This document shows, piece after piece, positions 2,783 through 18,282 of a stretch of 39,265 nt of DNA. Source of the DNA: Candidatus Taylorbacteria bacterium RIFCSPHIGHO2_02_FULL_44_12 (lineage in GTDB: Bacteria > Patescibacteriota > Minisyncoccia > Phycocordibacterales > PALSA-1337); contig MHRM01000001.1 in the NCBI GenBank assembly GCA_001822575.1, positions 24,755-64,019 of the forward strand, given 5' to 3'. How positions within the stretch are numbered: position 1 is the stretch's first letter; each line of letters begins with the position of its first letter. The position numbers and the translations under genes are program-made. Below the pieces are notes generated by a model. The model saw only the letters and a list, made by a program, of their open reading frames with translations. It did not search any database and was not told the origin of the DNA.

Positions 2783-3091
2783 AATTCAAACTGTTTTGGA
2801 TGCGCACCAAATGGAGTTAATTCCAAAATGCTCTCGCACAAGGCTCCACAATCAAGGCACACATCCGACTCACTATCAAAAAAGTATTACATAACCCCAA
2901 AAATGTCAATAGTCGGGTGTGGACAAAGGAACAACAAAAAATATTATGAACATGTTGAATCATAACTATACTATTTACATTATATATAATTGTTGTAGTC
3001 TCATTATTAGATTTAACTATCGAAACCACTTCTGTGGGATTGATTCATTTACAAACAGCTCACTGACAATCAGTAATACTAAAAAAAGACT

Positions 3092-5302
3092 ATGATAGAA
3101 CAAGATTTTCGTCCGCTGGTCGTATTGTACGGCTATCGGAGCAAGAAAAACACGCTCAATTTTGTGGGTCGAAAAGGGCTTATAATACTGAGCGGAAAAA
3201 GCACTACCATTCAGAATATTTTACGCCTGTGCAACGGATTCAATAATGTTGGGGATATAACTCACAAATTACGGACCGTCAGTCCGGAAGAAGTGACCAA
3301 ATTTCTGTTACTTTTTGAACAGCAAGGGATTGTCTGCGATAGTCGGAATCTTCATCTAAGGTTCCACGAAGATTCAGCCAATCCGACAAAATTCTCGCGC
3401 GATCTCGGTGTTGATGGGGTTTCAGATATATTGCGGTCTGATAGGTTACGAAAACGCGATGGTAGGGTAATTCAGATACCCAACCCTATCTCGAGTAGTG
3501 TTCTTGATGTAATTCAAAATCGGAAGTCTACTCGGGCTTTTCAACCGGGTCAGATTTCGTTGAACAAATTGTCTGGAATCTTGGAGGCTACATACAGCAT
3601 CGGGAAAAACAAACACTGGAGCGTGGCCTCCGGTGGTGGAATGTACCCGCTTGATCTGTATCTAATCGTCCCTAATGACGATCAACAAGTGCCCAGAGGC
3701 ATACATCGCTGGAATCCTGAGAAGAGAAGTTTGATCATGGTGTCGGGCAAAAATCCGAGCGTATGGTTGTCAAAGACATTCAATGCCAAAACGCTTTTGG
3801 AAAATGTGGCATGCGTCCTGTGCATAGTGGCAAATTTCAAGCGTTCAACTATGAAGTACGCGAATCGTGGGTATCGTCTTGTTTTACTTGAAGCTGGGCA
3901 TGCGACACAAAACACTTACTTATTTTGTGCTGAGCAAAATATTGGAATTGTTGAATGTTGTGGATTTGCTGATGAAGAACTAGCAAAAGAGCTCGGGCTG
4001 ATTTTCCCAGAAGAAGCAGTTTTAACAACACTTATTATAGGAAAAATCAATCGTAAAAAATATGCCTCAATAAGTGACCAAGAAATGTCAGAAACAGCAG
4101 AACGACTTCGTCACATGCTTGTTGGGCACAACAAACCAATAGAAGATGTTTCGTTTTTGGATCTTGAAGTGATGGGATACACAATGCCAATGTGGGCAGC
4201 TGTGGCTACATATAGACCTATTCATGGGTATGCCACAAAAATCATGCTTAGAAATAAAGTTGCATTTGCGACTGGATCAAATTCAAACGAAACGCTTATA
4301 AAAGTTCTAGCGGAAGGATTTGAGCGATGCGCGCTTGAACAAAACCGTAGCGACCAAAAAGAAAGCGCTCTCAATCTAGGCGAACCATTCCTCGATCCTC
4401 GCGTCCTAGTTCCTTACTCGAACGCTCAATTCAAAAACTTAAGAGGTGTCACACAGTTTGATCCCCGGAGAAAAATAGATTGGGTTATTGGTTCACGCAG
4501 AGCGACTGGCGAACGAGTTTGGGTTCCTATGGAGCTTGTCTACTACGCTACGGAGCAAATGAAGTGCGAATTGAAACTATGCTATCAAGCGAGTTCAAGT
4601 GGTGTCGCGGCGCATCTCGACAAAGAGATTGCGATTGAGACGGCTCTCTACGAACTTATCGAGCGTGATGCCTTCACTGTCACATGGTATTCCAAGCGTC
4701 AAGTGAATTCGATAAATCACGAGTACTTGCCGTTAGACTTGAGAGATAGAATTTCAGAGTGGAAGCGACTGGGTTACAATGTTTCCATGCTGGATTTGAC
4801 ACTCGATGGTCCTCCAGTAATACTGGCTATCATATGGTCTCGAAAAAAGAGACCTGCAATCTGTTCTGGTGCAGCCTGCAAACCAAACTTTGTTGATGCA
4901 ACTCTAAAAGCGTTCAACGAGGCTGAGTTTATGGCTATGACATGGCATGATTACAGGCGAAAAACGAGAATGAGCATTCTAGATATAAAATGTCCAGAAG
5001 ATCACGGCGCTTTTTATCTGGATCCGAAAAATCTCGTGTATGTTGACTGGCTACTTGAAGCAGAAGAAAGTGATGTAATCAGGAAAAACTTCAAGGGTGA
5101 TCTACAGTATCTTGATCCTGTTGTGGTGGATATTACACCCAAAGATCATGCCTGTGGGCTGTCGGTTATGCGGGTGCTGTCGGAAAAGCTCATGCCTATC
5201 AACTTCGGCCATGGTAATGAACACCGTGGACATTCTAGAATGAACATGTTATCGTTCAAATGGAGTGAGAAATACCCTTCGACTCCCCACTTCTTCGCTT
5301 GA
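3092..5302 (+). CDS. tri-domain RiPP maturase: PqqD-like recognition domain + SagB-type (nitroreductase-fold) dehydrogenase + YcaO cyclodehydratase
   Basis: SagB-type motifs: NRKSTRAFQPG, ASGGGMYPLDLYL, NRGYRLVLLEAGHATQNTYLF, VECCGFADEE. YcaO/SagD-type motifs: ATGSNSNETLIKVLAEGFERCA, SSSGVAAHLDKEIAIETALYELIERDAF, and a Pro-containing C-terminus KYPSTPHFFA. N-terminal aa about 25-85 (TTIQNILRLCNGFNNVGDITHKL...EEVTKFLLLFEQQGIV) follow the PqqD/RRE winged-helix pattern. Confidence 0.85.
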   Translation: MIEQDFRPLVVLYGYRSKKNTLNFVGRKGLIILSGKSTTIQNILRLCNGFNNVGDITHKLRTVSPEEVTKFLLLFEQQGIVCDSRNLHLRFHEDSANPTKFSRDLGVDGVSDILRSDRLRKRDGRVIQIPNPISSSVLDVIQNRKSTRAFQPGQISLNKLSGILEATYSIGKNKHWSVASGGGMYPLDLYLIVPNDDQQVPRGIHRWNPEKRSLIMVSGKNPSVWLSKTFNAKTLLENVACVLCIVANFKRSTMKYANRGYRLVLLEAGHATQNTYLFCAEQNIGIVECCGFADEELAKELGLIFPEEAVLTTLIIGKINRKKYASISDQEMSETAERLRHMLVGHNKPIEDVSFLDLEVMGYTMPMWAAVATYRPIHGYATKIMLRNKVAFATGSNSNETLIKVLAEGFERCALEQNRSDQKESALNLGEPFLDPRVLVPYSNAQFKNLRGVTQFDPRRKIDWVIGSRRATGERVWVPMELVYYATEQMKCELKLCYQASSSGVAAHLDKEIAIETALYELIERDAFTVTWYSKRQVNSINHEYLPLDLRDRISEWKRLGYNVSMLDLTLDGPPVILAIIWSRKKRPAICSGAACKPNFVDATLKAFNEAEFMAMTWHDYRRKTRMSILDIKCPEDHGAFYLDPKNLVYVDWLLEAEESDVIRKNFKGDLQYLDPVVVDITPKDHACGLSVMRVLSEKLMPINFGHGNEHRGHSRMNMLSFKWSEKYPSTPHFFA

Positions 5303-5336
5303 AGGAGTAACAAATTGAAGGGAAGTTGGGCGTATT

Positions 5337-5468
5337 ATGAAAACAAAAAAACCACCGAACCCCCCCAAAGGAGTCAAGGTGTCAGTTCGTTCTTACAAAG
5401 ACATCCCAGGAACCCGTTGCACCCGCAGTGGTGGCGCGTGTCCGGGAGGTGGTACCTGCGGAAAATAG
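5337..5468 (+). CDS. candidate RiPP precursor peptide (43 aa), not in the ORF track
   Basis: My translation: MKTKKPPNPPKGVKVSVRSYKDIPGTRCTRSGGACPGGGTCGK, stop TAG 5466-5468. It starts 34 nt after the YcaO-fusion stop. The C-terminal 18 aa contain 3 Cys, 3 Thr, 1 Ser and 6 Gly. An in-frame GTG at 5379 is preceded by AAGGAG (5368-5373), giving a possible 29-aa alternative. Confidence 0.5.
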   Translation: MKTKKPPNPPKGVKVSVRSYKDIPGTRCTRSGGACPGGGTCGK

Positions 5469-5488
5469 CCACCCCGTTACAACCAGGA

Positions 5489-5518
5489 ATTCCATGAGAC
5501 ATCCGTGTTTCATGGAAT
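5489..5518 (+). terminator. possible attenuating hairpin after the precursor ORF
   Basis: attccatga (5489-5497) pairs with tcatggaat (5510-5518) around a 12-nt loop, followed by the T-rich ctttgtttatc. Weak as a terminator. Confidence 0.3.
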
Positions 5519-5539
5519 CTTTGTTTATCTATAATATTG

Positions 5540-5545
5540 TATAAT
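5540..5545 (+). promoter_or_regulatory. -10-like TATAAT 6 nt upstream of ATG 5552 (leaderless-type arrangement)
   Basis: tataat followed by accttt then ATG. No Shine-Dalgarno motif lies between. Confidence 0.4.
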
Positions 5546-5551
5546 ACCTTT

Positions 5552-6217
5552 ATGTCTATAAATACCCATGTCCTTTTGGCCTCAAAAGATATAAGACCAT
5601 ATGTAAAACAACTGAAATCAATTTCTGAATCTGCTGTTTTGTCTGTTAAAAAATTGTTACCAATCAATGATGTGGATGTAGTGTTCTACTATAACCCAGG
5701 AGCAACATTTAATGAGTCTGAGGTTGGTGGTATCGGAGGATTTACACCAAATGCTAGTGTTATATTTATTTCACTAAATCCTCGTCATCCAAATCTTGAG
5801 AGTTCATTAAAAAATGAGTTACTATTTATGTTGGCTCATGAATTTCATCATACCATTCGTTGGCAAAAACAAGTCGAGGGCGACACCTTATTGGAGGCTC
5901 TGGTATTTGAAGGCTTAGCAGATCATTTTGCTCAAGAAATAACTGGCAAAAAAACTCCATCGATATATTCCAACGCATTGACCCCTGAACAAAAGAAAAT
6001 TTTTCTTAAAAAGGCTTCAGGGGAATGGGAAAAGCCAACATACGATAACAATCTATGGTTCTTTGGTTCACAGCCAGATGTTGTTCCGCGCTGGACAGGG
6101 TATACATTGGGATATGATCTCGTTTCCGCATATTTACATACAAACCCTGGGACAAGTGCTTCAAAACTTGCATCTGCTGATGCATCTTTGTTTGCCAACA
6201 AATCAATTTATCAGTAG
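5552..6217 (+). CDS. DUF2268/YjaZ-like putative zinc metallopeptidase (candidate leader peptidase)
   Basis: HExxH motif in MLAHEFHHTIRW, then EGLADHFAQE and RWTGYTLGYDLVSAYL, matching the general pattern of the DUF2268 predicted Zn-protease family. ATG 5552 is preferred over TTG 5537. Confidence 0.6.
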   Translation: MSINTHVLLASKDIRPYVKQLKSISESAVLSVKKLLPINDVDVVFYYNPGATFNESEVGGIGGFTPNASVIFISLNPRHPNLESSLKNELLFMLAHEFHHTIRWQKQVEGDTLLEALVFEGLADHFAQEITGKKTPSIYSNALTPEQKKIFLKKASGEWEKPTYDNNLWFFGSQPDVVPRWTGYTLGYDLVSAYLHTNPGTSASKLASADASLFANKSIYQ

Positions 6218-6378
6218 TGTCTAGACCCCTCAATCTTTTTGAAAAAAATAACATAAAAGGATTTGGTTATCCATGGGCGGAGATTTGAAATTCTGGAATA
6301 TACACAGTTACATATGCATCAAGAAAACTATCCGATAGTGCACTGAAACAACTGAATGTGGATAATAATCACATAAGG

Positions 6379-6391: not shown

Positions 6392-6826
6392 ATGCGCTTT
6401 CAGGTGCCTCAATTCATAGAAGTGGAAGACAGGATATTTGGCCAGCTGACTTTGAAGCAATTCATATATTTGGTCGGAGGCGGCGGTTTGTCTTTTCTTA
6501 TTTATGCCTTGACAGACAGCCTGGCCATATCCGTCGTCCCAATGATCATCATCATGGCCATATCTGCCTCCTTGGCTTTTTACAAGGTCAATAACAAACC
6601 CTTTATCGCCACCATGGAGTCCGCATTCAAATATTATCTAGGCAGTAAACTATATATATGGAAAAAAGAAGATGTCCCCGCAGAAAAGAGTCTCCAAAAT
6701 ATTTCGGCCATATCAAAAAACTACGCCTCTATCATGGTCCCAAAGATCTCTGACAGCAAGCTCAAAGACCTATCATGGAGTCTGGACATAAAAGAAAGCG
6801 TCTATTCAAACAAAAATCAAAAGTGA
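6392..6826 (+). CDS. PrgI-family-like small membrane protein (T4SS-associated)
   Basis: N-terminus MRFQVPQFIEVEDRIFGQLTLKQFIYLVGGGGLSFLIY and two TM helices are typical of PrgI-type proteins. It lies directly upstream of VirB4. Confidence 0.65.
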   Translation: MRFQVPQFIEVEDRIFGQLTLKQFIYLVGGGGLSFLIYALTDSLAISVVPMIIIMAISASLAFYKVNNKPFIATMESAFKYYLGSKLYIWKKEDVPAEKSLQNISAISKNYASIMVPKISDSKLKDLSWSLDIKESVYSNKNQK

Positions 6827-6871
6827 TTGGCATTGATTCCTTCCACCATTTCGCGAGAAAACAAAAAGAAT

Positions 6872-7510
6872 ATGGCAAATACAGTAAAAACCACCCAAAA
6901 TTTTGTTCCAGTCCGAGAGATCCGTGACGGGGTGATCATCTTGAAGGATGGGGCCATGCGTTCCGTCATTCTAGCTTCATCGTTAAATTTCGCTTTGAAG
7001 TCTGCCGATGAACAGAGCGCCATTCTTTTGCAATTCCAGAACTTTTTGAATTCTCTGGACTTTTCGGTTCAGATATTTATTCAGTCCAAAAAGTTGGATA
7101 TACGCCCATACATAGCCCTTTTGGAAGAGCGTTACAAAGAACAAGTCAGCGAATTGATGAAGATTCAAGTCCGGGAATACATAGAATTCGTCAAAACTTT
7201 TGTGGAAAGCGCCAATATTATGAGCAAAAGCTTCTTCGTGGTCATCCCTTATGACCCTCCAATCATCGGCTCGAAGAAAAATCCTTTCGCCAATATCCTC
7301 CCAAATCGCAAAGGCTCACAAGGCAATCCCACAGCCGATGCCCAGTTTGACGAATACCGCAGTCAACTAGAACAGAGAGTGGCTGTTGTGACCCAGGGCT
7401 TGGTACGCTGTGGTATCAGGGCCGCCGAATTGGGAACAGAGGAAGTGGTAGAATTGTTCTATAAGATATTCAATCCGGGGGAAACGGAAAAACCGATACA
7501 AATAACATAA
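6872..7510 (+). CDS. virB4: VirB4/TraE-type ATPase, N-terminal domain fragment
   Basis: TTQNFVPVREIRDGVIILKDGAMRSVILASSLNFALKSADEQSAILLQFQNFLNSL resembles the N-terminal domain of Gram-positive VirB4 homologs. It ends at TAA 7508-7510, in the same frame as and immediately followed by ATG 7511. Confidence 0.6.
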   Translation: MANTVKTTQNFVPVREIRDGVIILKDGAMRSVILASSLNFALKSADEQSAILLQFQNFLNSLDFSVQIFIQSKKLDIRPYIALLEERYKEQVSELMKIQVREYIEFVKTFVESANIMSKSFFVVIPYDPPIIGSKKNPFANILPNRKGSQGNPTADAQFDEYRSQLEQRVAVVTQGLVRCGIRAAELGTEEVVELFYKIFNPGETEKPIQIT

Positions 7511-9322
7511 ATGTCTATATTTTCAAAATTATTGGGGAAAAAATCTGAAGCACCAATAGTTTCCGTCTTACCCGAAGAAATATACCAAGCTGGGGTACTG
7601 GAACTCAAGGATGTCATCGCTCCATCTGCTCTCAAGGTTAGCCCCAAGGAGCTCAATCTCGGAGAAAAAATCGCTCGGACCTTATTTGTAATTTCTTATC
7701 CCAGATTTTTGGACGAAAGCTGGTTTGCTCCGATCATAAACCTAGACAAAGTATTCAATATATCCATATTTATTCACCCCGTTGACACCGCCAAGATACT
7801 GCGACATTTCCAGAAAAAAGTAGCCGAGGTTCAGGGACAGATTTCCAGAAGAGAAGACAAAGGCCTGGTGCGCGACCCGGCTCTGGATACAGCATACCAA
7901 GATCTGGAAGCCTTGCGCGATCAGCTGATGCAGGCCCAGGAACATCTCTTTGATGTCGGAGTATATATCACCCTCTTTGCCGAGACAGACAATGAATTAG
8001 ACAAACTAGAATCCGAGGTCAAATCCATTTTGGAATCAAAACTGGTATATGTAAAACCTGCCCTATTCCAGCAGGAACAAGGCTTCAAAAGCGTCATTCC
8101 CATTGCCGATGATCAGTTAGCTGTCCATTCCAAGCTCAATTCATCGCCACTCTCTAGTCTGTTCCCATTTGTTTCTTTTGATCTGACTTCGGACAAGGGC
8201 ATACTCTATGGGATCAATAGACACAATTCTTCATTGGTACTCTTTGACCGTTTCTCCTTGGAAAATTACAATTCCGTGACATTTGCGGTGGCTGGCGCCG
8301 GAAAATCCTACTTTACCAAGCTGGAAATTCTTCGTACCTTGATGTTTGATACAGAAGTGATCGTCATAGATCCTGAACGAGAATACGAATATATGGCCGA
8401 AGCCACGGGTGGAAAATATTTCAATATTTCCCTCAATTCCGAGCACCATATCAATCCCTTTGATCTACCGATACCGCGCGAAGATGAATCCGCTACTGAT
8501 GTTTTGCGCTCAAATATCATCAACTTGGTAGGATTATTCCGAATCATGTTGGGCGGCCTGACCCAGGAAGAAGACGCTATCATTGACCGGGCCATCACCG
8601 AGACATACGCTCTCAAAGACATTACAGCTGAGGCAGACTTCCGCAATGTAGAACCACCGCTTTTGTCAGACTTTGAATTGGTCCTGGCTGGAATGGAAGG
8701 AGCTGATTCTCTGGTCCAACGGATGTCAAAATACACCAAGGGTACATGGGCAGGCTTCATCAACCGCCCCTCAAATGTTGATATCAATAAAAAATTCGTG
8801 GTTTTTTCTCTTAGGGACATGGAAGACGAGCTCAAACCTGTGGCCATGTATATTGTTACTCACTATATCTGGAATGCTATCCGCAAAAACCTCAAGAAAC
8901 GCCTATTGGTCATAGATGAGGCATGGTGGATGATGAAATCCGAAGATACGGCTTCATTTCTATTCAGTTTGGCCAAACGTGGACGCAAATATTATCTGGG
9001 TCTATCCACTATCACTCAAGATGTGGATGACTTCTTGCGCTCGCCATACGGTTTGCCAATCGTTACCAACTCTTCTATTCAGATACTTCTGAAACAGTCA
9101 CCAGCTGTCATGGACAGCGTCCAAAAAACATTCAATCTGACCGATGAAGAGAAATACCTATTACTAGAATCAGATGTGGGAGAGGGGATGTTCTTCGTGG
9201 GCCTCAAGCATGTAGCTATAAAAATAGTGGCTTCCTACACCGAAGACCAAATCATCACCACCAATCCAGCTCAATTAGTCCAAATCCAGCAGGCAAAGAA
9301 AGATCTGGAGCAAGCCAGATAA
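7511..9322 (+). CDS. virB4: VirB4-family T4SS ATPase, C-terminal ATPase part
   Basis: Walker A is AVAGAGKSYFTK and Walker B is KRLLVIDEAWWMM. GRKYYLGLSTITQDVDDF is typical of the VirB4/TraC-type (DUF87 / AAA-like) domain. Confidence 0.85.
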   Translation: MSIFSKLLGKKSEAPIVSVLPEEIYQAGVLELKDVIAPSALKVSPKELNLGEKIARTLFVISYPRFLDESWFAPIINLDKVFNISIFIHPVDTAKILRHFQKKVAEVQGQISRREDKGLVRDPALDTAYQDLEALRDQLMQAQEHLFDVGVYITLFAETDNELDKLESEVKSILESKLVYVKPALFQQEQGFKSVIPIADDQLAVHSKLNSSPLSSLFPFVSFDLTSDKGILYGINRHNSSLVLFDRFSLENYNSVTFAVAGAGKSYFTKLEILRTLMFDTEVIVIDPEREYEYMAEATGGKYFNISLNSEHHINPFDLPIPREDESATDVLRSNIINLVGLFRIMLGGLTQEEDAIIDRAITETYALKDITAEADFRNVEPPLLSDFELVLAGMEGADSLVQRMSKYTKGTWAGFINRPSNVDINKKFVVFSLRDMEDELKPVAMYIVTHYIWNAIRKNLKKRLLVIDEAWWMMKSEDTASFLFSLAKRGRKYYLGLSTITQDVDDFLRSPYGLPIVTNSSIQILLKQSPAVMDSVQKTFNLTDEEKYLLLESDVGEGMFFVGLKHVAIKIVASYTEDQIITTNPAQLVQIQQAKKDLEQAR

Positions 9323-9333
9323 TTTTTTGCACA

Positions 9334-9445
9334 ATTGCGCCCTCTCGAGGACAACAGCTCTCCCTTCGTTTCGCTTCGCGAAAGTCGAGAGACTGTTCTC
9401 CCCTGCTTGTCCGCCGTAGCCTTGGCGAAGGTGGGCGGGCGCAAT
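9334..9445. other. GC-rich structured intergenic element (candidate ncRNA or regulatory structure)
   Basis: Outer 9-bp stem attgcgccc (9334-9342) pairs with gggcgcaat (9437-9445). Internal complement ctctcga (9342-9348) pairs with tcgagag (9385-9391). Palindrome ttcgcgaa at 9375-9382. Clearly GC-richer than the flanks. Confidence 0.4.
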
Positions 9446-9450
9446 GACAG

Positions 9451-9459
9451 TGTTATAAT
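9451..9459 (+). promoter_or_regulatory. extended -10 (TGTTATAAT) ending 6 nt upstream of ATG 9466 (leaderless-type arrangement)
   Basis: tgttataat followed by cgatgt then ATG. Confidence 0.45.
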
Positions 9460-9465
9460 CGATGT

Positions 9466-9978
9466 ATGCCACCACAAAAAAAGAAAATCGGAAAGATCAA
9501 ATGGTTACTGCTCTATTCTTTTACCGGCGTCGTGGATGTATTGCAATTTCTAGCGGATCTAACGGGGATCGGAATACTAGCCAGCGAGGCCGCCGAGCCA
9601 TTCATAGGAGGGATACTGATAGTCATGTTTGAATTGTTCGGAATATCTGTCATCACCAAACCCAAGAGATTGGTCTCTCTATTGTGTTTGGCAGGCGCCG
9701 ATGCCTTGACCGGTGGAATAGCGCCTTTCTGGATCGTTGATGTCTGGTATGTCCAAAGCGATGTCAAAAAAGAGGAGACGGAATACGAACAACAGACTCA
9801 ACAGGAAATGTTTATTCAATCGAGCATAGGAACGCCTGCGAATATAGACGGACAGCGCATTCCTCCAATAATCAACTCCACCAACAATCAACCCCTCAAT
9901 CAAAATGGTATCAGAATGCCTCGCAGAAACATCGCCCCATTACAATCTGCCATTCAAAAAACTGGAAATGCTCAGTAA
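9466..9978 (+). CDS. hypothetical multi-pass membrane protein (T4SS-like locus)
   Basis: Three predicted hydrophobic segments, then a Q/N/P-rich tail. No family recognised. Confidence 0.55.
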   Translation: MPPQKKKIGKIKWLLLYSFTGVVDVLQFLADLTGIGILASEAAEPFIGGILIVMFELFGISVITKPKRLVSLLCLAGADALTGGIAPFWIVDVWYVQSDVKKEETEYEQQTQQEMFIQSSIGTPANIDGQRIPPIINSTNNQPLNQNGIRMPRRNIAPLQSAIQKTGNAQ

Positions 9979-10010
9979 TAATATAGAGCCCAGCGAACAT
10001 TCTTTCATCT

Positions 10011-10119
10011 CTCCGCAATGTAGTTTGAGCCCCCGAGAATGGAAAACCCTCTAAAGCTTAATGAATATTGCTCGCACCGCTCCGCAAGGTCGCCCCGTCG
10101 AATGGAAAACCCTATAGAT
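10011..10119 (+). repeat. two imperfect direct repeat units upstream of gene 10160-11191
   Basis: Unit 1 is 10011-10056 and unit 2 is 10080-10119. Both start with ctccgcaa and contain the exact 14-mer gaatggaaaaccct (10037-10050 and 10100-10113, 63 nt apart). Confidence 0.6.
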
Positions 10120-10159
10120 AAGTGTGAACAAGTTCTTACTTCATGGTAAAATAAATTCA

Positions 10160-11191
10160 ATGAGATCGGCAATCAAACTCCTCTTTTTTGGCTTTATCGT
10201 ATTGTTTGCTGGCAATCTTTCTGTTCAGGCACAAATTCCTATTTCTGTCGGCGGCATAGAATTAACCGCTTCCGTTGATAATCCAATTCCAGAACAAATA
10301 GTTACCATTACTGCCAGAAGTTACAGCGTGGATATCAATACCGCCACTATCAGCTGGAGCGTGGGAGGGAAAGTCATATCCCAAGGCATAGGAGAAACCG
10401 TCGCAAAGGTAAAAGCCCCCGCACTGGGAACCGTTTTGAACGTAACCGTTTCCGCGGTATTGCCGGATGGCAATCGCCTGACCAAATCCATCTCCATAGG
10501 ATCTGGATCGGTAGATATGATCGTGGAAACAGATGGCCATGTCCCGGCATTTTTCCATGGCAAGGCCCCTGAAGGATATCAAAACAACATAAAGATAATA
10601 GCCATAGGACACATCGCGGATTCCCGTGGCGTCCAATACGATCCACAGACTCTGATATACCGCTGGAAAAAGAATAATCAGGCCATAGAGGATCAAAGCG
10701 GATATGGCAAACAATCCGTGGTGGTCGCCGGAGATATCGTTCCCAGAGCCTATGTCATATCGGTTACGGCAGAGACTCGCGACGGCAAAGCTCGAGCCGA
10801 AAGCAGTGTCTCTATATCTCCACAAGCCCCAGAAATAGTCTTTTACATTGACGATCCTCTCTACGGCCCAATGTTCAATGCGGCTGTGAATGAATCTATT
10901 CGAATCGGATCGGAAAGAGAAGTGAGCGTGCTGGCTTTGCCCTTCGGATTTAACAAACCAAAAGATTCTTCTGGTAATCTATCTTTTTCCTGGATGATCA
11001 ATAATGCCAGTCACCCAGAATTGGATTCCAGCCAGTCCATAGTCTTGCGCGCGCCGGATACTGGAGCTGGTTCTTCCGAGGTCCTGGTCAGCGTCCGCAA
11101 TATCCGCAATATCCTCCAGAGCGCCCAGTCTGGATTTGCTATTGTCTTTGGTCCTTCTGCCACCCAAAGCACTTCCGATCTAAATTTCTAA
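10160..11191 (+). CDS. secreted hypothetical protein
   Basis: Signal peptide MRSAIKLLFFGFIVLFAGNLSVQA starting at ATG 10160 (ORF track starts at GTG 10124). Beta-rich, Ig-like sequence style. No family recognised. Confidence 0.55.
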   Translation: MRSAIKLLFFGFIVLFAGNLSVQAQIPISVGGIELTASVDNPIPEQIVTITARSYSVDINTATISWSVGGKVISQGIGETVAKVKAPALGTVLNVTVSAVLPDGNRLTKSISIGSGSVDMIVETDGHVPAFFHGKAPEGYQNNIKIIAIGHIADSRGVQYDPQTLIYRWKKNNQAIEDQSGYGKQSVVVAGDIVPRAYVISVTAETRDGKARAESSVSISPQAPEIVFYIDDPLYGPMFNAAVNESIRIGSEREVSVLALPFGFNKPKDSSGNLSFSWMINNASHPELDSSQSIVLRAPDTGAGSSEVLVSVRNIRNILQSAQSGFAIVFGPSATQSTSDLNF

Positions 11192-11192
11192 T

Positions 11193-12383
11193 ATGAAATC
11201 ACTCATTTTATTGAGAGGAAACAAAAAAATCTTTATGGCTATGATTTTTTGCTTCATAGTGTTCTTGAATACCTTGAATGTTTCTAATCAACATTTCGTA
11301 TTCGCCCAGAACGCGAACAATACAACATACACTCTTTTGGAACCTCTTCCTTGTATACCGACAGAGACTAGCCCTTGCCCAGAGGGCCCGGGAGAATTAA
11401 AAACCGAAGTAAATCTCAATGAATATCTCATATATGCCATCAATTTGCTGATAGCCCTTTCGGCCGTGGCGGCAGTCTTCATGATCACTTGGGGGGGGTT
11501 CCAATACATGACAACGGATTCCTGGCAGAACAAAAAAGAAGGTTTGACCAAATTCAAAAACGCCATCTTCGGCCTTCTTCTAGTCCTTTGTTCATACATC
11601 ATACTGCGCACCGTCAATCCGAGGCTTGTAGAGATCCCAGCCACACTTGTGCCACCTCTAACGAATGTCAATCTCAAAGATTCAATAAGCCCTGATGATT
11701 TCTTTGATCAGATATCAGCAGAGGTACAAAGATTGAGTAACAATTTGGATGTTTCTATCATGGAAGAAAAGTTGAGACAAGCAAAAGGGGATGTAAAGTT
11801 AGAAAAACAAAATATTGATGATTTAAAAAAACAGTTGGATATATTATCAAAAGAGGGAATAAATGAAACTGATCCACGGGTACAAATAATAAAAACTTCT
11901 ATTGAAGTTGCAAATAATAATATAAAAGAAAAAGAGGCTAATGTTTTGGTAGAAGGGATTAAATTTACTAACAATGCCTCTATTGAGTTAGCCGCTCAAG
12001 GACTTGTTGGTAAAAAGGATTTTGAGGGGATCAACACTACTATAAATTACTACAAAAAAAGAATAGAGAATTCCGAAAATATAAAGATCTTCGAACTGGA
12101 AAAGCTCGGTAAGTACGAAAAATATTCCGTAGTAAATGATCAAGCTATTTATTCACAAACCATACTAGATTTGATGAGGAGCGATGCTATGGTCCAAAAC
12201 GCAGATTTTGGTTTCTTTTTCCCAAGCGGGACATATACATATAGAAGCCAGAAACCTCAAGCTTTGGCAGAGCTCAATACTGTGCCGAAACAAATAGAGT
12301 CCATAAAAGACCCGATATTGAAGCAAGAACTTCAGGATAGATTGAAAAACAGCATTGCATTGATTGAAGAAAAATTCAAATAG
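11193..12383 (+). CDS. T4SS-pilin-like (TrbC/VirB2-like) domain protein with long coiled-coil C-terminal extension
   Basis: Signal/TM segment, then two helices LLIALSAVAAVFMITWGGFQYMTT ... AIFGLLLVLCSYIILRTVNP typical of T4SS pilin domains. The C-terminal 230 aa are K/E-rich coiled coil. Confidence 0.5.
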   Translation: MKSLILLRGNKKIFMAMIFCFIVFLNTLNVSNQHFVFAQNANNTTYTLLEPLPCIPTETSPCPEGPGELKTEVNLNEYLIYAINLLIALSAVAAVFMITWGGFQYMTTDSWQNKKEGLTKFKNAIFGLLLVLCSYIILRTVNPRLVEIPATLVPPLTNVNLKDSISPDDFFDQISAEVQRLSNNLDVSIMEEKLRQAKGDVKLEKQNIDDLKKQLDILSKEGINETDPRVQIIKTSIEVANNNIKEKEANVLVEGIKFTNNASIELAAQGLVGKKDFEGINTTINYYKKRIENSENIKIFELEKLGKYEKYSVVNDQAIYSQTILDLMRSDAMVQNADFGFFFPSGTYTYRSQKPQALAELNTVPKQIESIKDPILKQELQDRLKNSIALIEEKFK

Positions 12384-12404
12384 ATAAAATATCCTCCAAT
12401 AATC

Positions 12405-13721
12405 ATGACCATTAAAGGAAAAACTATAATAATACTAATCGTGATTTTGCTCGGAAGCGCAATCTCTTATTGGTATTTTTTGTTGCGTTATTCTATGAAT
12501 ACAATCCCTATAAATACAGACACAGAAGAAACTGGGGGCTTCGCTCCTTTTGGCAGGACATCATCTGGTGGTAGACAAGGAACAAGTGGCGGAGAGAATG
12601 CCACAACAACAAATTATTCTGGCCAGAATGAACAGGTTAGACTGCCTGTTCTGCGGCTCTTGAGCGACACCCCCATCGGGGGGTATGGCGCTAGTACCAC
12701 GGCCAGCACCACGGTCATTCGCTGGATTGATCGCGGCAGAGGCAATACTTATGAAGCTCGTCAGGACTCCCTCAATATCAGAACATTATCAAACACCATA
12801 TTGCCAAGAGTCTATCAATCTTCCTGGAATAAAAATCTGACTGCCTTCATTGGGACGATTTTCCCGGACAATTCTGGAGATCCAAGTGTGGTTTACGCGG
12901 AACTTCAAGCCCACCCAATACCCAAACAACAGGCCACAACTACAGCCACTTCAACTCCGACTGCCCCAGCCAACAATTCCCTGGCCCCATTTGATCTCAA
13001 AGGCAAAAATCTTCCAGAAAAAACAATTGCTTATGCTGTTTCGCCAAAAAAAGATCGCCTATTCGTCTTTGTAGACGAGAACGGATCCGGAACAGGTTAT
13101 ATTTCAAACTTTAACGGCAGTTCCTTGAAAAAAATATTTTCTTCGCCATTGACCCAAGTCAATGTTGATTGGCCAGAAGAAAACACCATTGCCATCACCA
13201 CCAAAGGATCGTCCAATCAAAATGGATTTTTGTACTTCGTCAATCCTAATACTGGCATAATAAAAAAAATCCTTGGTCCCATCCGTGGATTGAGCACACG
13301 AGTCAGTCACGACGCTCGCTATGTTCTATATTCCACGGCTCTGATCTCCAAAAACAGCATCCGGGCTTTCATATACTCAATAACTTCCGCCAGCGAAACA
13401 GACGCTCTGATCCAAACATTGGCAGATAAATGCGCTTGGGGGCATTTCTATGCTTATACCGTCTATTGCGCGGCGCCATCATCTTTGATTCAAGCAGAAT
13501 ACCCTGATGACTGGTATAAGGGGACTGTTTCCTTCACAGACAAAATCTGGGCAGTAGATGCCAGAACTGGTGAAGTTAGTTTGGTTTCAGCTTTGGTTGA
13601 TCAGGCCGATCGCTTGATAGATGTTTTCAACATGGAAATCAGTGATAAAGACGAATATTTGCTCTTTATGAATAAAAAAGACCTATCATTCTGGTCACTG
13701 GATTTGGTGTCTAGTAAGTGA
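12405..13721 (+). CDS. membrane-anchored hypothetical protein, possibly beta-propeller-like
   Basis: N-terminal TM IIILIVILLGSAISYWYFLL, then a Gly/Thr-rich linker and a beta-rich body. No motif recognised. Confidence 0.55.
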   Translation: MTIKGKTIIILIVILLGSAISYWYFLLRYSMNTIPINTDTEETGGFAPFGRTSSGGRQGTSGGENATTTNYSGQNEQVRLPVLRLLSDTPIGGYGASTTASTTVIRWIDRGRGNTYEARQDSLNIRTLSNTILPRVYQSSWNKNLTAFIGTIFPDNSGDPSVVYAELQAHPIPKQQATTTATSTPTAPANNSLAPFDLKGKNLPEKTIAYAVSPKKDRLFVFVDENGSGTGYISNFNGSSLKKIFSSPLTQVNVDWPEENTIAITTKGSSNQNGFLYFVNPNTGIIKKILGPIRGLSTRVSHDARYVLYSTALISKNSIRAFIYSITSASETDALIQTLADKCAWGHFYAYTVYCAAPSSLIQAEYPDDWYKGTVSFTDKIWAVDARTGEVSLVSALVDQADRLIDVFNMEISDKDEYLLFMNKKDLSFWSLDLVSSK

Positions 13722-13755: not shown

Positions 13756-14517
13756 TTATGACACGATCCTAACTTTACGCGAATATCTGTACATGATGAA
13801 CAATTCCTGAACCAAGGTGAACAGGGTGCTGACTGTCCAGTAGATAGCGATTATAGCGGCTGCGGCAGGGAATTGGGAAGGAATGATCCAATAAGTTGAA
13901 ACAAAAGCCAAGATCGGCAATAAGAACTTCATTTGTTTGTTCATGGAACCAGCCAACTGCGAAGAAAAATCGACATTGGTTGGCGTGGTTTTGGATTGGC
14001 GAGTCTGGGCTCGGACAGCCGGGGAAAAATAAAGCTGAAAAAATTGGGCTCCGGCAGTGATGAATGACAAAATCAAACTTTTCTGGGTTAAATCAATCAA
14101 TCCTAGAAAATGTGTTTTGATAACCGGCACGGAAATGAAATTGTAGAGAAATTCGGGGTGAATATCTGGAATGATCTTGTAAAAAACCGAGATCAAAGCA
14201 AGCAATATCGGAAGTTGGATCAGTAACAGCAAAATTCCGGAAAAAGGACGAATGCCTTTAGACTTGTACAATTCCATGATCTTCATGGCCTGTACTTGGC
14301 GATCATTGGCGTATTTAGCTTTTAGTTGAGCCATTTCCGGCTCAACTTCCTTCATTCGCGCCTGGGTCAATATAGAAGTCCTAGATAGAGGGAACAATAT
14401 CAATTTGACTATGACCGTGAAGATAATAACTGCCATCCCCAGATCTATCCACGGCAAAACATCTATAATACCCACCAAGCCATTGTAGAGAGGCCGAAAT
14501 ATCAGTGTTTGGTACAT
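13756..14517 (-). CDS. yidC: YidC/Oxa1-family membrane protein insertase
   Basis: VIIFTVIVKLILFPLS ... MAQLKAKYANDRQVQAMKIMELYKSKGIRPFSGILLLLIQLPILLAL, and it lies downstream of rnpA. Confidence 0.9.
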   Translation of the reverse strand: MYQTLIFRPLYNGLVGIIDVLPWIDLGMAVIIFTVIVKLILFPLSRTSILTQARMKEVEPEMAQLKAKYANDRQVQAMKIMELYKSKGIRPFSGILLLLIQLPILLALISVFYKIIPDIHPEFLYNFISVPVIKTHFLGLIDLTQKSLILSFITAGAQFFQLYFSPAVRAQTRQSKTTPTNVDFSSQLAGSMNKQMKFLLPILAFVSTYWIIPSQFPAAAAIIAIYWTVSTLFTLVQELFIMYRYSRKVRIVS

Positions 14518-14521
14518 CCGT

Positions 14522-14863
14522 TCAAGTATACTTTAATATTCCTGTCTTCACAAAGAGACCATGGAGATCATCCGTCAGGGCTGGAATCAGCTCTTTTAAT
14601 CCTGACAATTTTCCAAAAACAACAACATTCATTCCTTGGAGGATTCGTGGATACAAAGGCCTCACTGCCTCATATATTCGCCTGCGCATCTTATTTCTAC
14701 TCACGGCTGTCTTAAATATTTTCTTGCTAGCCACGGCGGCTATCCTAGTATCGGAACAACTGCTGACAAATCTGACAGTAAAAAAAGTTGAATGAGCCAC
14801 TCTTCCTTTGCTCATTACAAACTCAAATTGAAAAGTATTCAGTCTTTGCGAGCGTGGGAGCAT
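14522..14863 (-). CDS. rnpA: ribonuclease P protein component
   Basis: 113 aa and basic, with KKIFKTAVSRNKMRRRIYEAVR. Classical rpmH-rnpA-yidC order. Confidence 0.85.
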   Translation of the reverse strand: MLPRSQRLNTFQFEFVMSKGRVAHSTFFTVRFVSSCSDTRIAAVASKKIFKTAVSRNKMRRRIYEAVRPLYPRILQGMNVVVFGKLSGLKELIPALTDDLHGLFVKTGILKYT

Positions 14864-14875
14864 TTTGGCTTTGAT

Positions 14876-14998
14876 GGACCAAACACCACTACATCACATA
14901 ACAAACTCATCTTAAGCCCAGTCGCTTGGCTGAAGAACTACATTTTGTGGTAGAGGCCGCTGGCAATGTTTGTTATGTGATGTAGTGGTGTTTGGTCC
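14876..14998 (-). repeat. long-hairpin element A: 31-bp perfect inverted repeat with 61-nt loop
   Basis: Left arm 14876-14906 (ggaccaaacaccactacatcacataacaaac) is the exact reverse complement of right arm 14968-14998. Read on the minus strand, the loop starts with attgccagcggcctc, which is shared with element B. Confidence 0.85.
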
Positions 14999-15007
14999 TT
15001 AAAAACA

Positions 15008-15142
15008 TCAAACAGCAATACGACGACGGCCTTTGGCGCGACGACGAGTCAAGCCTTTTCTTCCAGAGGCTGTTTTCATTCGGGCACGAAAGCCGTGGGT
15101 CCGAGCTCTCTTGCGTCTTTTGGGTTGGTAAGTTATGGACAT
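15008..15142 (-). CDS. rpmH: 50S ribosomal protein L34 (below the ORF-track size cutoff)
   Basis: My reverse-strand translation: [44 protein letters not shown], 44 aa plus stop. Confidence 0.9.
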
Positions 15143-15297
15143 GGTTTTACTATACAGGATATGGAACACAAATCAATATCAATGAGCTCGATTTTGGCAT
15201 ATCCACATCTTATCAACATATTTAAGCTTTTGGCACAAGTATGTACAATCAAAAACAAGTATATACTTAGAAAATAAATCCGAGGAATAGAAATTCA

Positions 15298-16650: not shown

Positions 16651-16876
16651 ATATAGATAATGATGTGTATAAGTATGGAATTGTTGGTGGATAAAATCGT
16701 TTATTTTTAATCTAAGAAAAACTTCTTCATCCATTATGGTTGTTGGTTATATGTTTATCCGAAAATAAAAAGTCATAAAACACTTTATATATAAAGTAAA
16801 AATAGCTTTTCAACATATCCACAGTCCTAATAATAATAAGTGAAAAATTAAAAAATAATTACTACTATAAAATACC
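16651..16876. promoter_or_regulatory. putative oriC (dnaA-dnaN spacer with DnaA-box-like sites and an AT-rich tract)
   Basis: Three 8/9 matches (16664-16672 tgtgtataa, 16686-16694 ggtggataa, 16815-16823 atatccaca) and one 7/9 match (16755-16763 ttatccgaa) to TTATCCACA. Very AT-rich run at 16824-16870. Two more boxes lie upstream of dnaA (15199-15207 atatccaca, 15210-15218 ttatcaaca). Confidence 0.6.
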
Positions 16877-17983: not shown

Positions 17984-18282
17984 TGGTGGGGCTTGTACGA
18001 TCCACAGACACATTTGAATATATGATAGGTATAGGACAATTTTTAAAAAAAATAATAAACACTCGATCTGGTGAATGGTTGATCCGTTCAAAGGTTAGGA
18101 AAGCAATAAACAAAGAGATTTTTTTGGATATACCGGAAAAAGATATTTATTTTTCACATTCAACGATTGTTTTGAAAAATGTTCCCCAAGCGGCCAGATC
18201 TGAATTGTTTATCAAAAAATCCAACCTTTTGAGGGACATAAATGCTTCGCAAAAAGTTAAGATTTTTACAGATTTTCGCTAA
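17980..18282 (+). CDS. small hypothetical protein, possibly DUF721/DciA-like
   Basis: 100 aa, overlapping the dnaN stop by 4 nt. Position after dnaN and the pattern HSTIVLKNVPQAARSELFIKKSNLLRDIN loosely resemble DUF721 proteins. Weak call. Confidence 0.35.
   Translation: MMVGLVRSTDTFEYMIGIGQFLKKIINTRSGEWLIRSKVRKAINKEIFLDIPEKDIYFSHSTIVLKNVPQAARSELFIKKSNLLRDINASQKVKIFTDFR

What the first reader, a model, noticed from the sequence alone, without database searches (positions are those of the whole stretch)
5337..5468. Small ORF missing from the ORF track encoding a leader-core style peptide with three Cys in a Gly-rich C-terminus
My hand translation of the frame starting at ATG 5337 gives MKTKKPPNPPKGVKVSVRSYKDIPGTRCTRSGGACPGGGTCGK (stop TAG 5466-5468). 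The N-terminal half is Lys/Pro-rich and leader-like. The last 18 residues hold 3 Cys, 3 Thr, 1 Ser and 6 Gly, the composition expected for a heterocyclisation core. An in-frame GTG at 5379 has a perfect AAGGAG 5 nt upstream, so a 29-aa product is also possible. The 60-aa cutoff of the supplied track hides this ORF. The track instead shows a 60-aa ORF in a different frame (5315-5497) with no Cys.
Basis: seen in the sequence. Interest (0 to 1): 0.8.

Follow-up and report, generated by a model that had tools for sequence, protein, structure and literature searches.

The report
Unannotated azole-peptide precursor gene in CPR bacterium
The 43-codon ORF is a real, conserved and mostly unannotated gene that most likely encodes the substrate peptide of the adjacent thiazole/oxazole-forming enzyme in a Patescibacteria (CPR) chromosome, so it is a new example, with an unusual enzyme layout, of a known type of modified-peptide natural product.

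Summary
ORF 5337-5468 (+) encodes MKTKKPPNPPKGVKVSVRSYKDIPGTRCTRSGGACPGGGTCGK, 34 nt after a 736-aa enzyme gene.

**Coding evidence**
- The frame is under purifying selection: pN/pS is 0.23, against 1.0-1.7 in the other two frames.
- The rival 5315 frame carries stops in five of six close orthologs.
- Every CPR ortholog with sequence downstream except L008 has the same peptide, down to 48% enzyme identity. R30, G32, G33, C35, G37-39 and C41 are invariant; C28 is not conserved.
- In more distant loci, 40 of 56 have a Cys/Ser/Gly-rich small ORF within 600 nt of the enzyme gene, against 10 of 322 control stretches.

**Cluster**
- The enzyme combines an N-terminal RiPP recognition element (fold search), a SagB-type FMN dehydrogenase and a YcaO cyclodehydratase. 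No E1-like or ThiF-like partner was found.
- A conserved terminator follows the peptide gene, then a widely co-conserved DUF2268 HExxH peptidase.
- The neighbouring type IV secretion genes are not syntenic.

**Verdict**
This is most likely a linear azole-containing peptide (LAP) precursor. LAP clusters in CPR genomes were reported in 2020, so the kind is known. The short conserved core, the fused enzyme and the three-gene layout are a variant. The chemistry and the target are untested. Interest is moderate.

The parts
3092..5302 (+). 736-aa all-in-one modifying enzyme. RRE-like domain about residues 8-95 (3113-3376), SagB-type FMN dehydrogenase about residues 121-320 (3452-4051), YcaO cyclodehydratase about residues 330-736 (4079-5299), TGA stop.
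   Evidence: Pfam Nitroreductase (E 2e-16) and YcaO (E 2e-41). NCBIfam SagB TIGR03605 above its cut-off, SagD TIGR03604 below its cut-off. AF2 model pLDDT 86. Foldseek matches to LynD, TruD, McbD, McbC and BmdC. N-domain model matches RREs of TruD, LynD, PbtF, ThcOx and TbiB1. Invariant K255-Y256 aligns with the BmdC Lys-Tyr.
5303..5336 (+). 34-nt spacer between the enzyme stop and the peptide start. It has a purine-rich SD-like stretch (GAAGGGAAG) and no terminator, which implies co-transcription.
   Evidence: Sequence. Orthologs carry AGGTGAT or AGGAGG 6-9 nt before the ATG. No terminator-like site lies between the genes.
5337..5423 (+). Predicted leader region of the precursor (codons 1-29), containing the conserved beta-strand-like motif KGVKVSVRSY (codons 11-20).
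   Evidence: V15 and Y20 are nearly invariant in the CPR clade. The (I/V)x(I/V)xVxx(P)Y motif recurs in distant relatives. The leader/core boundary is inferred.
5424..5468 (+). Predicted core RSGGACPGGGTCGK (codons 30-43) plus the TAG stop. C35 and C41 are the conserved candidate thiazole sites. T40 is a possible additional heterocyclisation site, as is the Ser that orthologs carry at position 36 (Pro in the window).
   Evidence: R30, G32, G33, C35, G37-39 and C41 are invariant in 14 distinct CPR peptides. pN/pS 0.23.
5489..5528 (+). Intrinsic terminator: a 13-bp hairpin (5489-5518) followed by a T-run.
   Evidence: Terminator scan. Fold -19.5 kcal/mol, z -4.4. Equivalent hairpin plus U-run, built from unrelated sequence, in five other loci (z -4.3 to -6.8).
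5538..5545 (+). Conserved TGTATAAT (extended -10-like box) 6 nt upstream of the DUF2268 start codon. It is a likely separate promoter and may give a leaderless mRNA.
   Evidence: Read from the sequence and conserved in the ortholog alignment. It was not reported by the two-hexamer promoter scan, so this is an inference.
5552..6217 (+). DUF2268 predicted Zn-metallopeptidase (HEFHH motif), the candidate leader peptidase.
   Evidence: Pfam PF10026, E 8e-30. HEFHH motif. Public gene calls start at the position equal to window 5552. Adjacent to the enzyme in 32 loci, including ones at 23-36% enzyme identity.

Best explanation
ORF 5337-5468 is the precursor-peptide gene of a minimal three-gene linear azol(in)e-containing peptide (LAP/TOMM-type RiPP) cluster in a Patescibacteria (Candidatus Taylorbacteria-like) chromosome.

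Proposed mechanism, with shown and inferred steps marked:
1. The enzyme and the peptide are co-transcribed and the transcript ends at a conserved terminator. This is inferred from a 34-nt gap, no terminator between the genes, and a conserved hairpin after the peptide gene.
2. The 43-aa peptide is translated from ATG 5337. That the frame is under selection is shown; translation itself is inferred.
3. The leader's beta-strand motif KGVKVSVRSY binds the enzyme's N-terminal RiPP recognition element. The fold is shown; binding is inferred by analogy with LynD and TbiB1.
4. The YcaO domain uses ATP to cyclodehydrate Cys35 and Cys41 to azolines, and possibly Thr40 and Ser31 as well (orthologs also carry Ser at position 36, where the window has Pro). 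This is inferred.
5. The fused SagB-type FMN dehydrogenase oxidises the azolines to azoles. This is inferred; the Lys-Tyr motif is intact.
6. The co-conserved DUF2268 HExxH peptidase removes the leader near the invariant R30-S31-G32-G33. This is inferred.

The product would be a Gly-rich peptide of about 14 residues with two or more azoles, a miniature relative of microcin B17-like peptides. Export and target are unknown.
For: - The ORF is real and selected: codon-position substitutions 17:11:40 and pN/pS 0.23 against 1.03 and 1.67 in the other frames.
- The same peptide follows the enzyme gene in nearly all CPR orthologs with 48-81% enzyme identity, with an invariant R-x-GG-x-C-x-GGG-x-C.
- Distant fused enzymes (23-39% identity, including one on a Rothia plasmid) are flanked by Cys/Ser/Gly-rich small ORFs with a similar leader motif: 40 of 56 loci against 10 of 322 controls.
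- Enzyme domains: Pfam and NCBIfam YcaO plus SagB. A confident AF2 model matches the azoline-forming YcaOs LynD, TruD and McbD and the azoline oxidases McbC and BmdC.
- The N-domain's best structural matches are RREs.
- Catalytic residues are invariant: the K255-Y256 pair, and the ExxER and ELxERD acidic motifs.
- The DUF2268 protein has HEFHH and is syntenic across the family.
- A terminator is conserved after the peptide gene.
- Sharrar et al. 2020 (PMC7298704) reported LAP clusters with YcaO, nitroreductase and peptidase in 93 further CPR genomes, 51 of them Parcubacteria.
Against: - There is no experimental evidence of translation or modification.
- The peptide matches no curated precursor family in Pfam or NCBIfam.
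- No E1-like (C) or Ocin-ThiF-like (F) partner is present in the enzyme, in the conserved neighbourhood, or among the window ORFs scanned. Canonical azoline-forming YcaOs usually need one.
- RREs fused to dehydrogenases have been suggested to be vestigial (PMC7470986).
- The enzyme scores below NCBI's cut-off for the SagD family (153 against 219 bits).
- The residue before Cys35 is variable (A/K/E/Q) rather than the small residue some cyclodehydratases prefer.
- No transporter or immunity gene is conserved nearby.
- One CPR locus (L008) shows no peptide ORF beside the enzyme.
Confidence: 0.85

Rival explanations
1. The peptide is a genuine substrate of the YcaO enzyme, but the modification is not azole formation. 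It could be backbone thioamidation, amidine or macroamidine formation, or the ATP-dependent peptide cleavage described for some YcaOs.
For: YcaO enzymes catalyse several amide-activation chemistries (established knowledge). One structural match is a YcaO with ATP-dependent peptidase activity (7u58). No E1/ThiF partner is present. The TIGR03604 score is below its cut-off and there is a weaker hit to the McrA-thioamidation YcaO family.
Against: A SagB-type dehydrogenase with an invariant Lys-Tyr motif is covalently fused to the YcaO, and its only known role in RiPP pathways is azoline oxidation. The best structural matches are the azoline-forming LynD and TruD. No TfuA was found among the scanned neighbours. 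The conserved residues in the cores are Cys and Ser/Thr beside Gly, as in known LAPs.
Confidence: 0.08
2. The small ORF encodes an unmodified small protein, for example a Cys-containing metal-binding or regulatory peptide, that merely shares an operon with the enzyme. The enzyme's true substrate would lie elsewhere.
For: The core is unusually conserved for a RiPP, more like a structural or functional protein than a hypervariable bacteriocin. No precursor family match exists.
Against: Only two Cys are conserved, too few for a classical Zn site. Adjacency of a Cys/Ser/Gly-rich small ORF persists while the core sequences change completely across enzyme relatives at 23-39% identity, which is the hallmark of an enzyme-substrate pair. 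The leader motif is conserved across these otherwise unrelated cores. The enzyme has its own RRE.
Confidence: 0.04
3. The ORF is not translated, and its conservation reflects a non-coding element (a 3' UTR, attenuator or regulatory RNA) between the enzyme and peptidase genes. Alternatively the overlapping 60-aa ORF 5315-5497 is the real gene.
For: Public gene calls on three contigs carrying this exact locus omit the ORF. The window's SD before ATG 5337 is weak, whereas TTG 5315 has GAAGGAG 8 nt upstream.
Against: pN/pS is 0.23 with third-position-dominated change in the 5337 frame. The 5315 frame has stops in five of six close orthologs, and the window's TGG at 5327-5329 is TAG in all six. Protein-level conservation persists with different codons and good SDs (AGGAGG) in distant loci. 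Some orthologs are called as hypothetical proteins, e.g. MEK7576073.1.
Confidence: 0.03

Closest known systems
Linear azol(in)e-containing peptide (LAP) clusters reported in CPR genomes (Sharrar et al. 2020, mBio, PMC7298704)
   Same: The host group is the same (CPR, including Parcubacteria). The enzyme set is the same: YcaO, nitroreductase/SagB and a peptidase. [quoted passage not shown]
   Different: The published example (Microgenomates) has separate YcaO and nitroreductase genes and an 84-aa precursor. Here the dehydrogenase and YcaO are one polypeptide with an N-terminal RRE, and the precursor is 37-44 aa with a conserved 14-residue core. This peptide family and the fusion are not described in that paper's text, and its supplements do not mention Taylorbacteria. 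I could not tell whether this genome was among their 93.
Microcin B17 system (McbA precursor, McbBCD synthetase, TldD/E leader protease)
   Same: Both have a Gly-rich core with Cys and Ser/Thr next to Gly. The (T/S)-C and C-S dipeptides resemble the sites that become fused bis-heterocycles in MccB17 (my own knowledge). Both pair a YcaO (McbD) with an FMN dehydrogenase (McbC), and both of those match the model structurally. In both, a cytoplasmic Zn-metalloprotease is used or proposed for leader removal.
   Different: The peptide has no sequence homology to McbA. The core is about 14 residues against 43. There is no E1-like McbB scaffold, and a single fused chain replaces an octameric complex. 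No McbEFG-type export or immunity genes are present. DUF2268 is not TldD/E. Gyrase targeting is pure speculation here.
Cyanobactin enzymes LynD/TruD/PatD (RRE-E1-like-YcaO fusions) and ThcOx (RRE-RRE-FMN oxidase)
   Same: These are the best structural matches for both the whole enzyme and its N-terminal domain. The principle of an RRE fused N-terminally to the catalytic domains is the same.
   Different: In LynD and TruD the domain between the RRE and YcaO is E1-like. Here that position holds a SagB-type dehydrogenase, so cyclodehydratase and oxidase are merged and the E1-like activator is missing. The product is predicted to be linear: no PatA/PatG macrocyclase proteases were found.
Heterocycloanthracin/sonorensin family (TIGR03601)
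   Same: Both have Cys/Gly-rich repetitive cores. One distant relative of this enzyme family is flanked by a peptide with a sub-threshold hit (20 bits against a cut-off of 35).
   Different: The window peptide and its CPR orthologs give no hit. HCA clusters use a CD-fused cyclodehydratase plus an Ocin-ThiF-like F protein (PMC4603692), and neither is present here.

Membership tests
LAP / TOMM-type RiPP biosynthetic cluster | A YcaO-superfamily cyclodehydratase (D protein) encoded next to the precursor | tested here: met
   Pfam YcaO, 142.9 bits against a cut-off of 25.7. Structural matches to LynD, TruD and McbD. Invariant acidic ATP/Mg motifs. The NCBIfam SagD subfamily model TIGR03604 scores below its cut-off, 153 against 219 bits.
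LAP / TOMM-type RiPP biosynthetic cluster | A partner for leader binding and YcaO activation: an E1-like C protein or an Ocin-ThiF-like F protein, separate or fused (PMC4603692, PMC7136475) | tested here: not met
   No ThiF/E1 or TOMM C/F family hit in the enzyme or in the other window ORFs scanned, nor in gene calls of neighbouring genes. The position between the RRE and YcaO is occupied by a nitroreductase fold. Only an RRE fold is present. A partner encoded elsewhere in the genome cannot be excluded.
LAP / TOMM-type RiPP biosynthetic cluster | An FMN-dependent SagB/McbC-type dehydrogenase (B protein) for azoline-to-azole oxidation (present in most clusters, optional) | tested here: met
   TIGR03605 SagB, 99.4 bits against a cut-off of 78.4. 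Pfam Nitroreductase. phmmer hits to BmdC and McbC with the Lys-Tyr aligned. K255-Y256 invariant in 24 homologs.
LAP / TOMM-type RiPP biosynthetic cluster | A short precursor with an N-terminal leader and a Cys/Ser/Thr-rich core, conserved next to the enzyme | tested here: met
   43-aa ORF with a conserved leader motif and core. Purifying selection. Adjacency across the enzyme family: 40 of 56 loci against 10 of 322 controls.
LAP / TOMM-type RiPP biosynthetic cluster | Azol(in)e heterocycles in a linear mature product | not testable with these tools
   Needs mass spectrometry or NMR of the modified peptide.
RiPP recognition element (PqqD-like RRE) | A winged-helix fold of three beta-strands followed by three helices, matching solved RREs | tested here: met
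   N-domain AF2 model, pLDDT 87, with strands 13-17, 21-26 and 29-34 and helices 37-45, 53-59 and 65-77. The 12 best Foldseek hits are TruD, LynD, PbtF-RRE, TigE, ThcOx and TbiB1 (best E 2.6e-4, rmsd 2.6-3.7 A). Sequence-only searches failed: no Pfam hit, and the PDB profile search was inconclusive.
RiPP recognition element (PqqD-like RRE) | Binds the leader peptide of the cognate precursor | not testable with these tools
   Needs a binding assay or a complex prediction. RREs fused to dehydrogenases may be vestigial (PMC7470986). Here it is the only RRE in the cluster and is as conserved as the rest of the enzyme: 55% mean column identity against 57%.
Microcin B17 (McbA) family | Sequence homology of the precursor to McbA, and a McbBCD-type synthetase with an McbB scaffold | tested here: not met
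   No family hit for the peptide. No McbB-like E1 homolog was found. Only compositional resemblance and domain-level structural similarity to McbC and McbD.
Heterocycloanthracin/sonorensin bacteriocins (TIGR03601) | Precursor matches TIGR03601 above its cut-off | tested here: not met
   No hit for the window peptide or the CPR orthologs, even at E up to 10. One distant relative scores 20 bits, below the cut-off of 35.

The most novel reading that the evidence does not exclude
The cluster may be a distinct, self-sufficient type of azole synthetase. In this reading a single RRE-dehydrogenase-YcaO chain does the work of the canonical B, C and D proteins without any E1-like or ThiF-like activator, paired with a DUF2268 leader peptidase.

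In CPR bacteria its 14-residue core (RSGGxCxGGGxCG) is held nearly constant across enzymes that have diverged to 48% identity. That is unlike the hypervariable cores of bacteriocin-type RiPPs. It would point to a fixed, conserved molecular target or a physiological role, for example in the episymbiont-host relationship, rather than strain-level warfare. It would also be made and released without a dedicated transporter or immunity gene.
Probability: 0.3. Interest if true: 0.65.

Novelty: new variant of a known kind. Interest (0 to 1): 0.5.

Why it matters
CPR/Patescibacteria have tiny genomes and are thought to live as symbionts, so any conserved secondary-metabolite pathway in them is a clue to how they interact with hosts or competitors.

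This locus gives a concrete, testable minimal system: one enzyme, one 43-aa peptide and one peptidase, about 3.1 kb in all.

If the fused enzyme works without an E1/ThiF partner, it would be a compact azole-installing biocatalyst. It would also extend the rules for how YcaO cyclodehydratases are activated.

On the practical side, the peptide gene is missed by the public annotations of this genome, and its exact sequence is absent from a 15-billion-protein collection. It shows what length cut-offs hide.

Tried and rejected
- **DNA search against plasmids.** A blastn search of 3000-6300 found nothing. A protein-level plasmid search gave only distant YcaO/SagB hits.
- **Family searches for the peptide.** Pfam and NCBIfam gave no hits, even at E up to 10.
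- **Sequence-only tests of the N-terminal domain.** Pfam gave no hit. A profile search against PDB sequences gave only insignificant hits (eS21, winged-helix proteins, PbtF at E=2). The fold had to be tested by structure.
- **Link to the type IV secretion genes.** Rejected. PrgI, VirB4 and the pilin gene are not next to the enzyme-peptide pair in any ortholog, whereas DUF2268 is. The upstream window ORFs are likewise not syntenic.
- **29-aa product from GTG 5379.** Rejected as the main product. The GTG is GTT in L018, has no equivalent in distant loci, and would bisect the conserved leader motif. The N-terminal codons also show synonymous changes such as AGA/CGA.
- **The 5315 frame.** Rejected.
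- **Extra precursor copies in the window.** None found.
- **Literature.** The YcaO Chem Rev review was not held. The supplements of Sharrar 2020 contain no mention of Taylorbacteria or this assembly. Searches for a described dehydrogenase-YcaO fusion found only CD fusions and RRE-dehydrogenase fusions. Absence from the searchable literature does not prove it has never been described.

Full report
**1. The observation**

The window has an ATG-to-TAG ORF at 5337-5468 (+) that translates to MKTKKPPNPPKGVKVSVRSYKDIPGTRCTRSGGACPGGGTCGK. So are the in-frame GTG 5379 with AAGGAG 5 nt upstream, and the overlapping Cys-free 60-aa ORF at 5315-5497. It is the only small ORF on either strand of the 39-kb window with this kind of Cys/Gly/Ser/Thr-rich tail.

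**2. Neighbours**

- The ORF starts 34 nt after the stop of a 736-aa ORF (3092-5302). That ORF carries a Nitroreductase/SagB domain and a YcaO domain.
- After the small ORF comes a 13-bp hairpin with a T-run (5489-5518).
- Next is a DUF2268 predicted Zn-peptidase (ATG 5552 to 6217) with an HEFHH motif.
- Further downstream lie type IV secretion genes: PrgI, a two-gene VirB4 and a T4SS pilin.
- After those comes the replication-origin neighbourhood (yidC, rnpA, dnaA, dnaN), followed by housekeeping genes: PBP1, RuvABC, PolA, FemAB and a Mur ligase.
- This is therefore a chromosomal region. The exact enzyme sequence occurs on contigs of about 130 kb, including NCBI assembly GCA_001821095.1. The gene calls there leave the gap between the enzyme and DUF2268 genes empty.
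- Homologs of the enzyme come from Patescibacteria/CPR MAGs: Taylorbacteria, Uhrbacteria, Parcubacteria and Minisyncoccia.

**3. Is the ORF a gene?**

- Six genome loci and many metagenome loci with orthologous enzymes were fetched.
- Every CPR-clade locus with sequence downstream of the enzyme, except L008, has a small ORF in the corresponding frame.
- Among the window and six close orthologs, the minimum substitutions per codon position are 17:11:40.
- Summed Nei-Gojobori estimates give pN/pS 0.23 in the 5337 frame, 1.03 in the 5315 frame and 1.67 in the third frame. The 5315 frame contains 1-4 stops in five of six orthologs.
- The window's TGG at 5327-5329 is TAG in all six close orthologs.
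- Fourteen distinct CPR peptides, from enzymes with 48-100% identity, align with R30, G32, G33, C35, G37-39 and C41 invariant. V15, Y20 and S31 are nearly invariant. Cys28 is not conserved.
- The window's exact peptide is absent from a collection of about 15 billion predicted proteins. A few orthologs are present as 'hypothetical protein', for example MEK7576073.1.
- The internal GTG is GTT in L018 and has no counterpart in distant loci, which instead have ATG starts with AGGAGG-type SDs. The 43-aa product is therefore favoured.

**4. Is it tied to the enzyme?**

- Relatives of the fused enzyme with only 23-39% identity are flanked by small ORFs whose cores are unrelated in sequence but share the character. 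One of these relatives is on a Rothia plasmid. An example is MHTKTLSTITVVVSPVSRAMASGGGSHCGGGSGGGNCGSGGGSGCAGGSCGAGCGGNSCGSGCGK. Some of these ORFs lie upstream of the enzyme gene.
- Their leaders share an (I/V)x(I/V)xVxx(P)Y-like strand motif with the window's KGVKVSVRSY.
- With a strict filter, 40 of 56 loci have such an ORF within 600 nt of the enzyme, against 10 of 322 equally sized control stretches in the same loci. Several of the 16 misses are filter failures: L009 and L021 have clear candidates.
- A strong hairpin plus U-run follows the peptide stop codon in six loci spanning 37-100% enzyme identity. The sequences are unrelated and z-scores run from -4.3 to -6.8.
- DUF2268 homologs are adjacent in 32 loci, down to 23% enzyme identity. 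The T4SS genes and the upstream ORFs of the window are never syntenic.
- The conserved unit is therefore enzyme + peptide + DUF2268 peptidase.

**5. The enzyme**

- An AlphaFold2 model built on 24 homologs is confident (pLDDT 85.9, pTM 0.84).
- Against the PDB it matches the azoline-forming cyclodehydratases LynD, TruD and McbD, other YcaOs, and the azoline oxidases McbC and BmdC.
- Residues 1-105, modelled separately (pLDDT 87), have the beta-beta-beta-alpha-alpha-alpha order. The 12 best hits are the RREs of TruD, LynD, PbtF, TigE, ThcOx and TbiB1.
- Sequence-only methods did not detect this domain.
- K255-Y256 is invariant and aligns with the Lys-Tyr of BmdC. McbC also matches, E 1.7e-8.
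- The YcaO acidic motifs and the C-terminal PxxPHFF are invariant or nearly so.
- No E1-like or ThiF-like domain is detectable in the protein, in the conserved neighbourhood, or among the window ORFs scanned. The place it occupies in LynD and TruD is taken by the dehydrogenase.

**6. Mechanism**

The best-supported reading is a LAP/TOMM-type pathway:
- the leader is captured by the N-terminal RRE;
- the YcaO domain carries out ATP-dependent cyclodehydration of C35 and C41, and perhaps adjacent Ser/Thr;
- the fused dehydrogenase oxidises the azolines with FMN;
- DUF2268 removes the leader near the invariant RSGG.

What is shown: the gene is real and selected, it co-occurs with the enzyme across deep divergence, the enzyme's folds are as stated, and its catalytic motifs are intact. 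What is inferred: binding, which residues are modified, the cleavage site, export and target.

Caveats:
- RREs fused to dehydrogenases have been called possibly vestigial (PMC7470986). Here, however, it is the only RRE in the cluster and is as conserved as the rest of the protein.
- Canonical azoline-forming YcaOs depend on an E1/ThiF partner (PMC4603692; PMC7136475), and none was found.

**7. Comparison with what is known, and novelty**

- Sharrar et al. 2020 reported that CPR genomes encode LAP clusters with YcaO, nitroreductase and peptidase: 110 clusters in 93 further genomes, 51 of them Parcubacteria. Their example has an 84-aa precursor (PMC7298704). The kind of system, and its presence in this group, is therefore known.
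- I found no description of three things: this short peptide family with its conserved RSGGxCxGGGxCG core, the RRE-SagB-YcaO single-chain architecture without a C/F partner, and DUF2268 as the associated peptidase.
- The peptide matches no curated precursor family.
- I rate it a new variant of a known kind, of moderate interest. Finding a precursor next to a SagB-YcaO gene is what a specialist would expect. The conserved core, the partner-less fused synthetase and the minimal three-gene layout in a reduced-genome symbiont are the parts worth testing.

Noticed in passing
window 6827-7510 and 7511-9322 (+): The VirB4/TraC-like conjugation ATPase is split into two adjacent same-frame ORFs: a TraC-like N-terminal part of 227 aa and a P-loop part of 603 aa. 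They are separated only by a TAA stop followed directly by ATG. The same split is called in all three public contigs that carry this locus, so it looks like a genuine two-gene arrangement rather than a sequencing error.
   Followed up: partly
window 6392-13721 (+), next to 13756-17983: A type IV secretion-like gene set (PrgI, split VirB4, T4SS pilin-domain protein and several unknown ORFs) sits directly beside the replication-origin neighbourhood (yidC, rnpA, dnaA, dnaN) of a CPR chromosome. It is not syntenic with the peptide cluster in other genomes.
   Followed up: partly
L089 about 14420-20100, compared with L087/L088 (window 7511 onward): One public contig is 100% identical to the window through the enzyme, DUF2268, PrgI and the VirB4 N-part, and then diverges sharply. 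The VirB4 C-part is 90% identical, the following T4SS genes only 27-54%, and yidC is on the other strand. This suggests a strain-level replacement or recombination boundary inside the T4SS region.
   Followed up: no
window 5538-5554; equivalent positions in L001-L005, L018, L091: A conserved TGTATAAT / TATAAT-like box lies only 6-8 nt upstream of the DUF2268 start codon, and there is no Shine-Dalgarno sequence. This would fit a leaderless mRNA for the peptidase gene.
   Followed up: no
L015 about 2780-2930 and the identical L016: In this 39%-identity ortholog the leader-like part (MSASRKKAGKLSIRVTFRPYRGTDPVKTWG...) and the Cys-rich tail (...CDDCSDDCGGSCQYSGRRLPK) lie in different reading frames. 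Two contigs from different samples are identical here. It is either an assembly error shared by both, a decayed precursor, or a frameshift that would need explaining.
   Followed up: no
L090 (Rothia nasimurium plasmid NZ_CP056081.1), within 600 nt of the enzyme gene at locus 3944-6070: An unannotated small ORF, MFTIENLTTLSVKVRLDENTRSIIGKCGNGGSSCNGGGGGGCHALPPK, lies next to a fused SagB-YcaO protein annotated only as 'YcaO-like family protein'. The same enzyme-precursor pairing therefore exists outside CPR, on an actinobacterial plasmid.
   Followed up: partly
L008 (enzyme 58% identical), downstream of 4255: This is the only CPR-clade locus examined where no peptide ORF is visible on either side of the enzyme gene. 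The enzyme stop is followed directly by a hairpin-like sequence. It may be a loss of the precursor or a rearrangement.
   Followed up: no
L092-L094, L025, L036, L040 (enzymes 28-41% identical): A second recurring motif, SANG or SANSANG, sits just before the Cys/Ser-rich part of the peptides in this intermediate group. It may mark the leader-core junction or a protease site.
   Followed up: no
L094 6312-8181: A SAVED-domain protein followed by a SMODS nucleotidyltransferase (a CBASS-type anti-phage pair by Pfam) lies about 1.1 kb downstream of the enzyme gene, just beyond the peptide and peptidase genes, in this metagenome contig.
   Followed up: no
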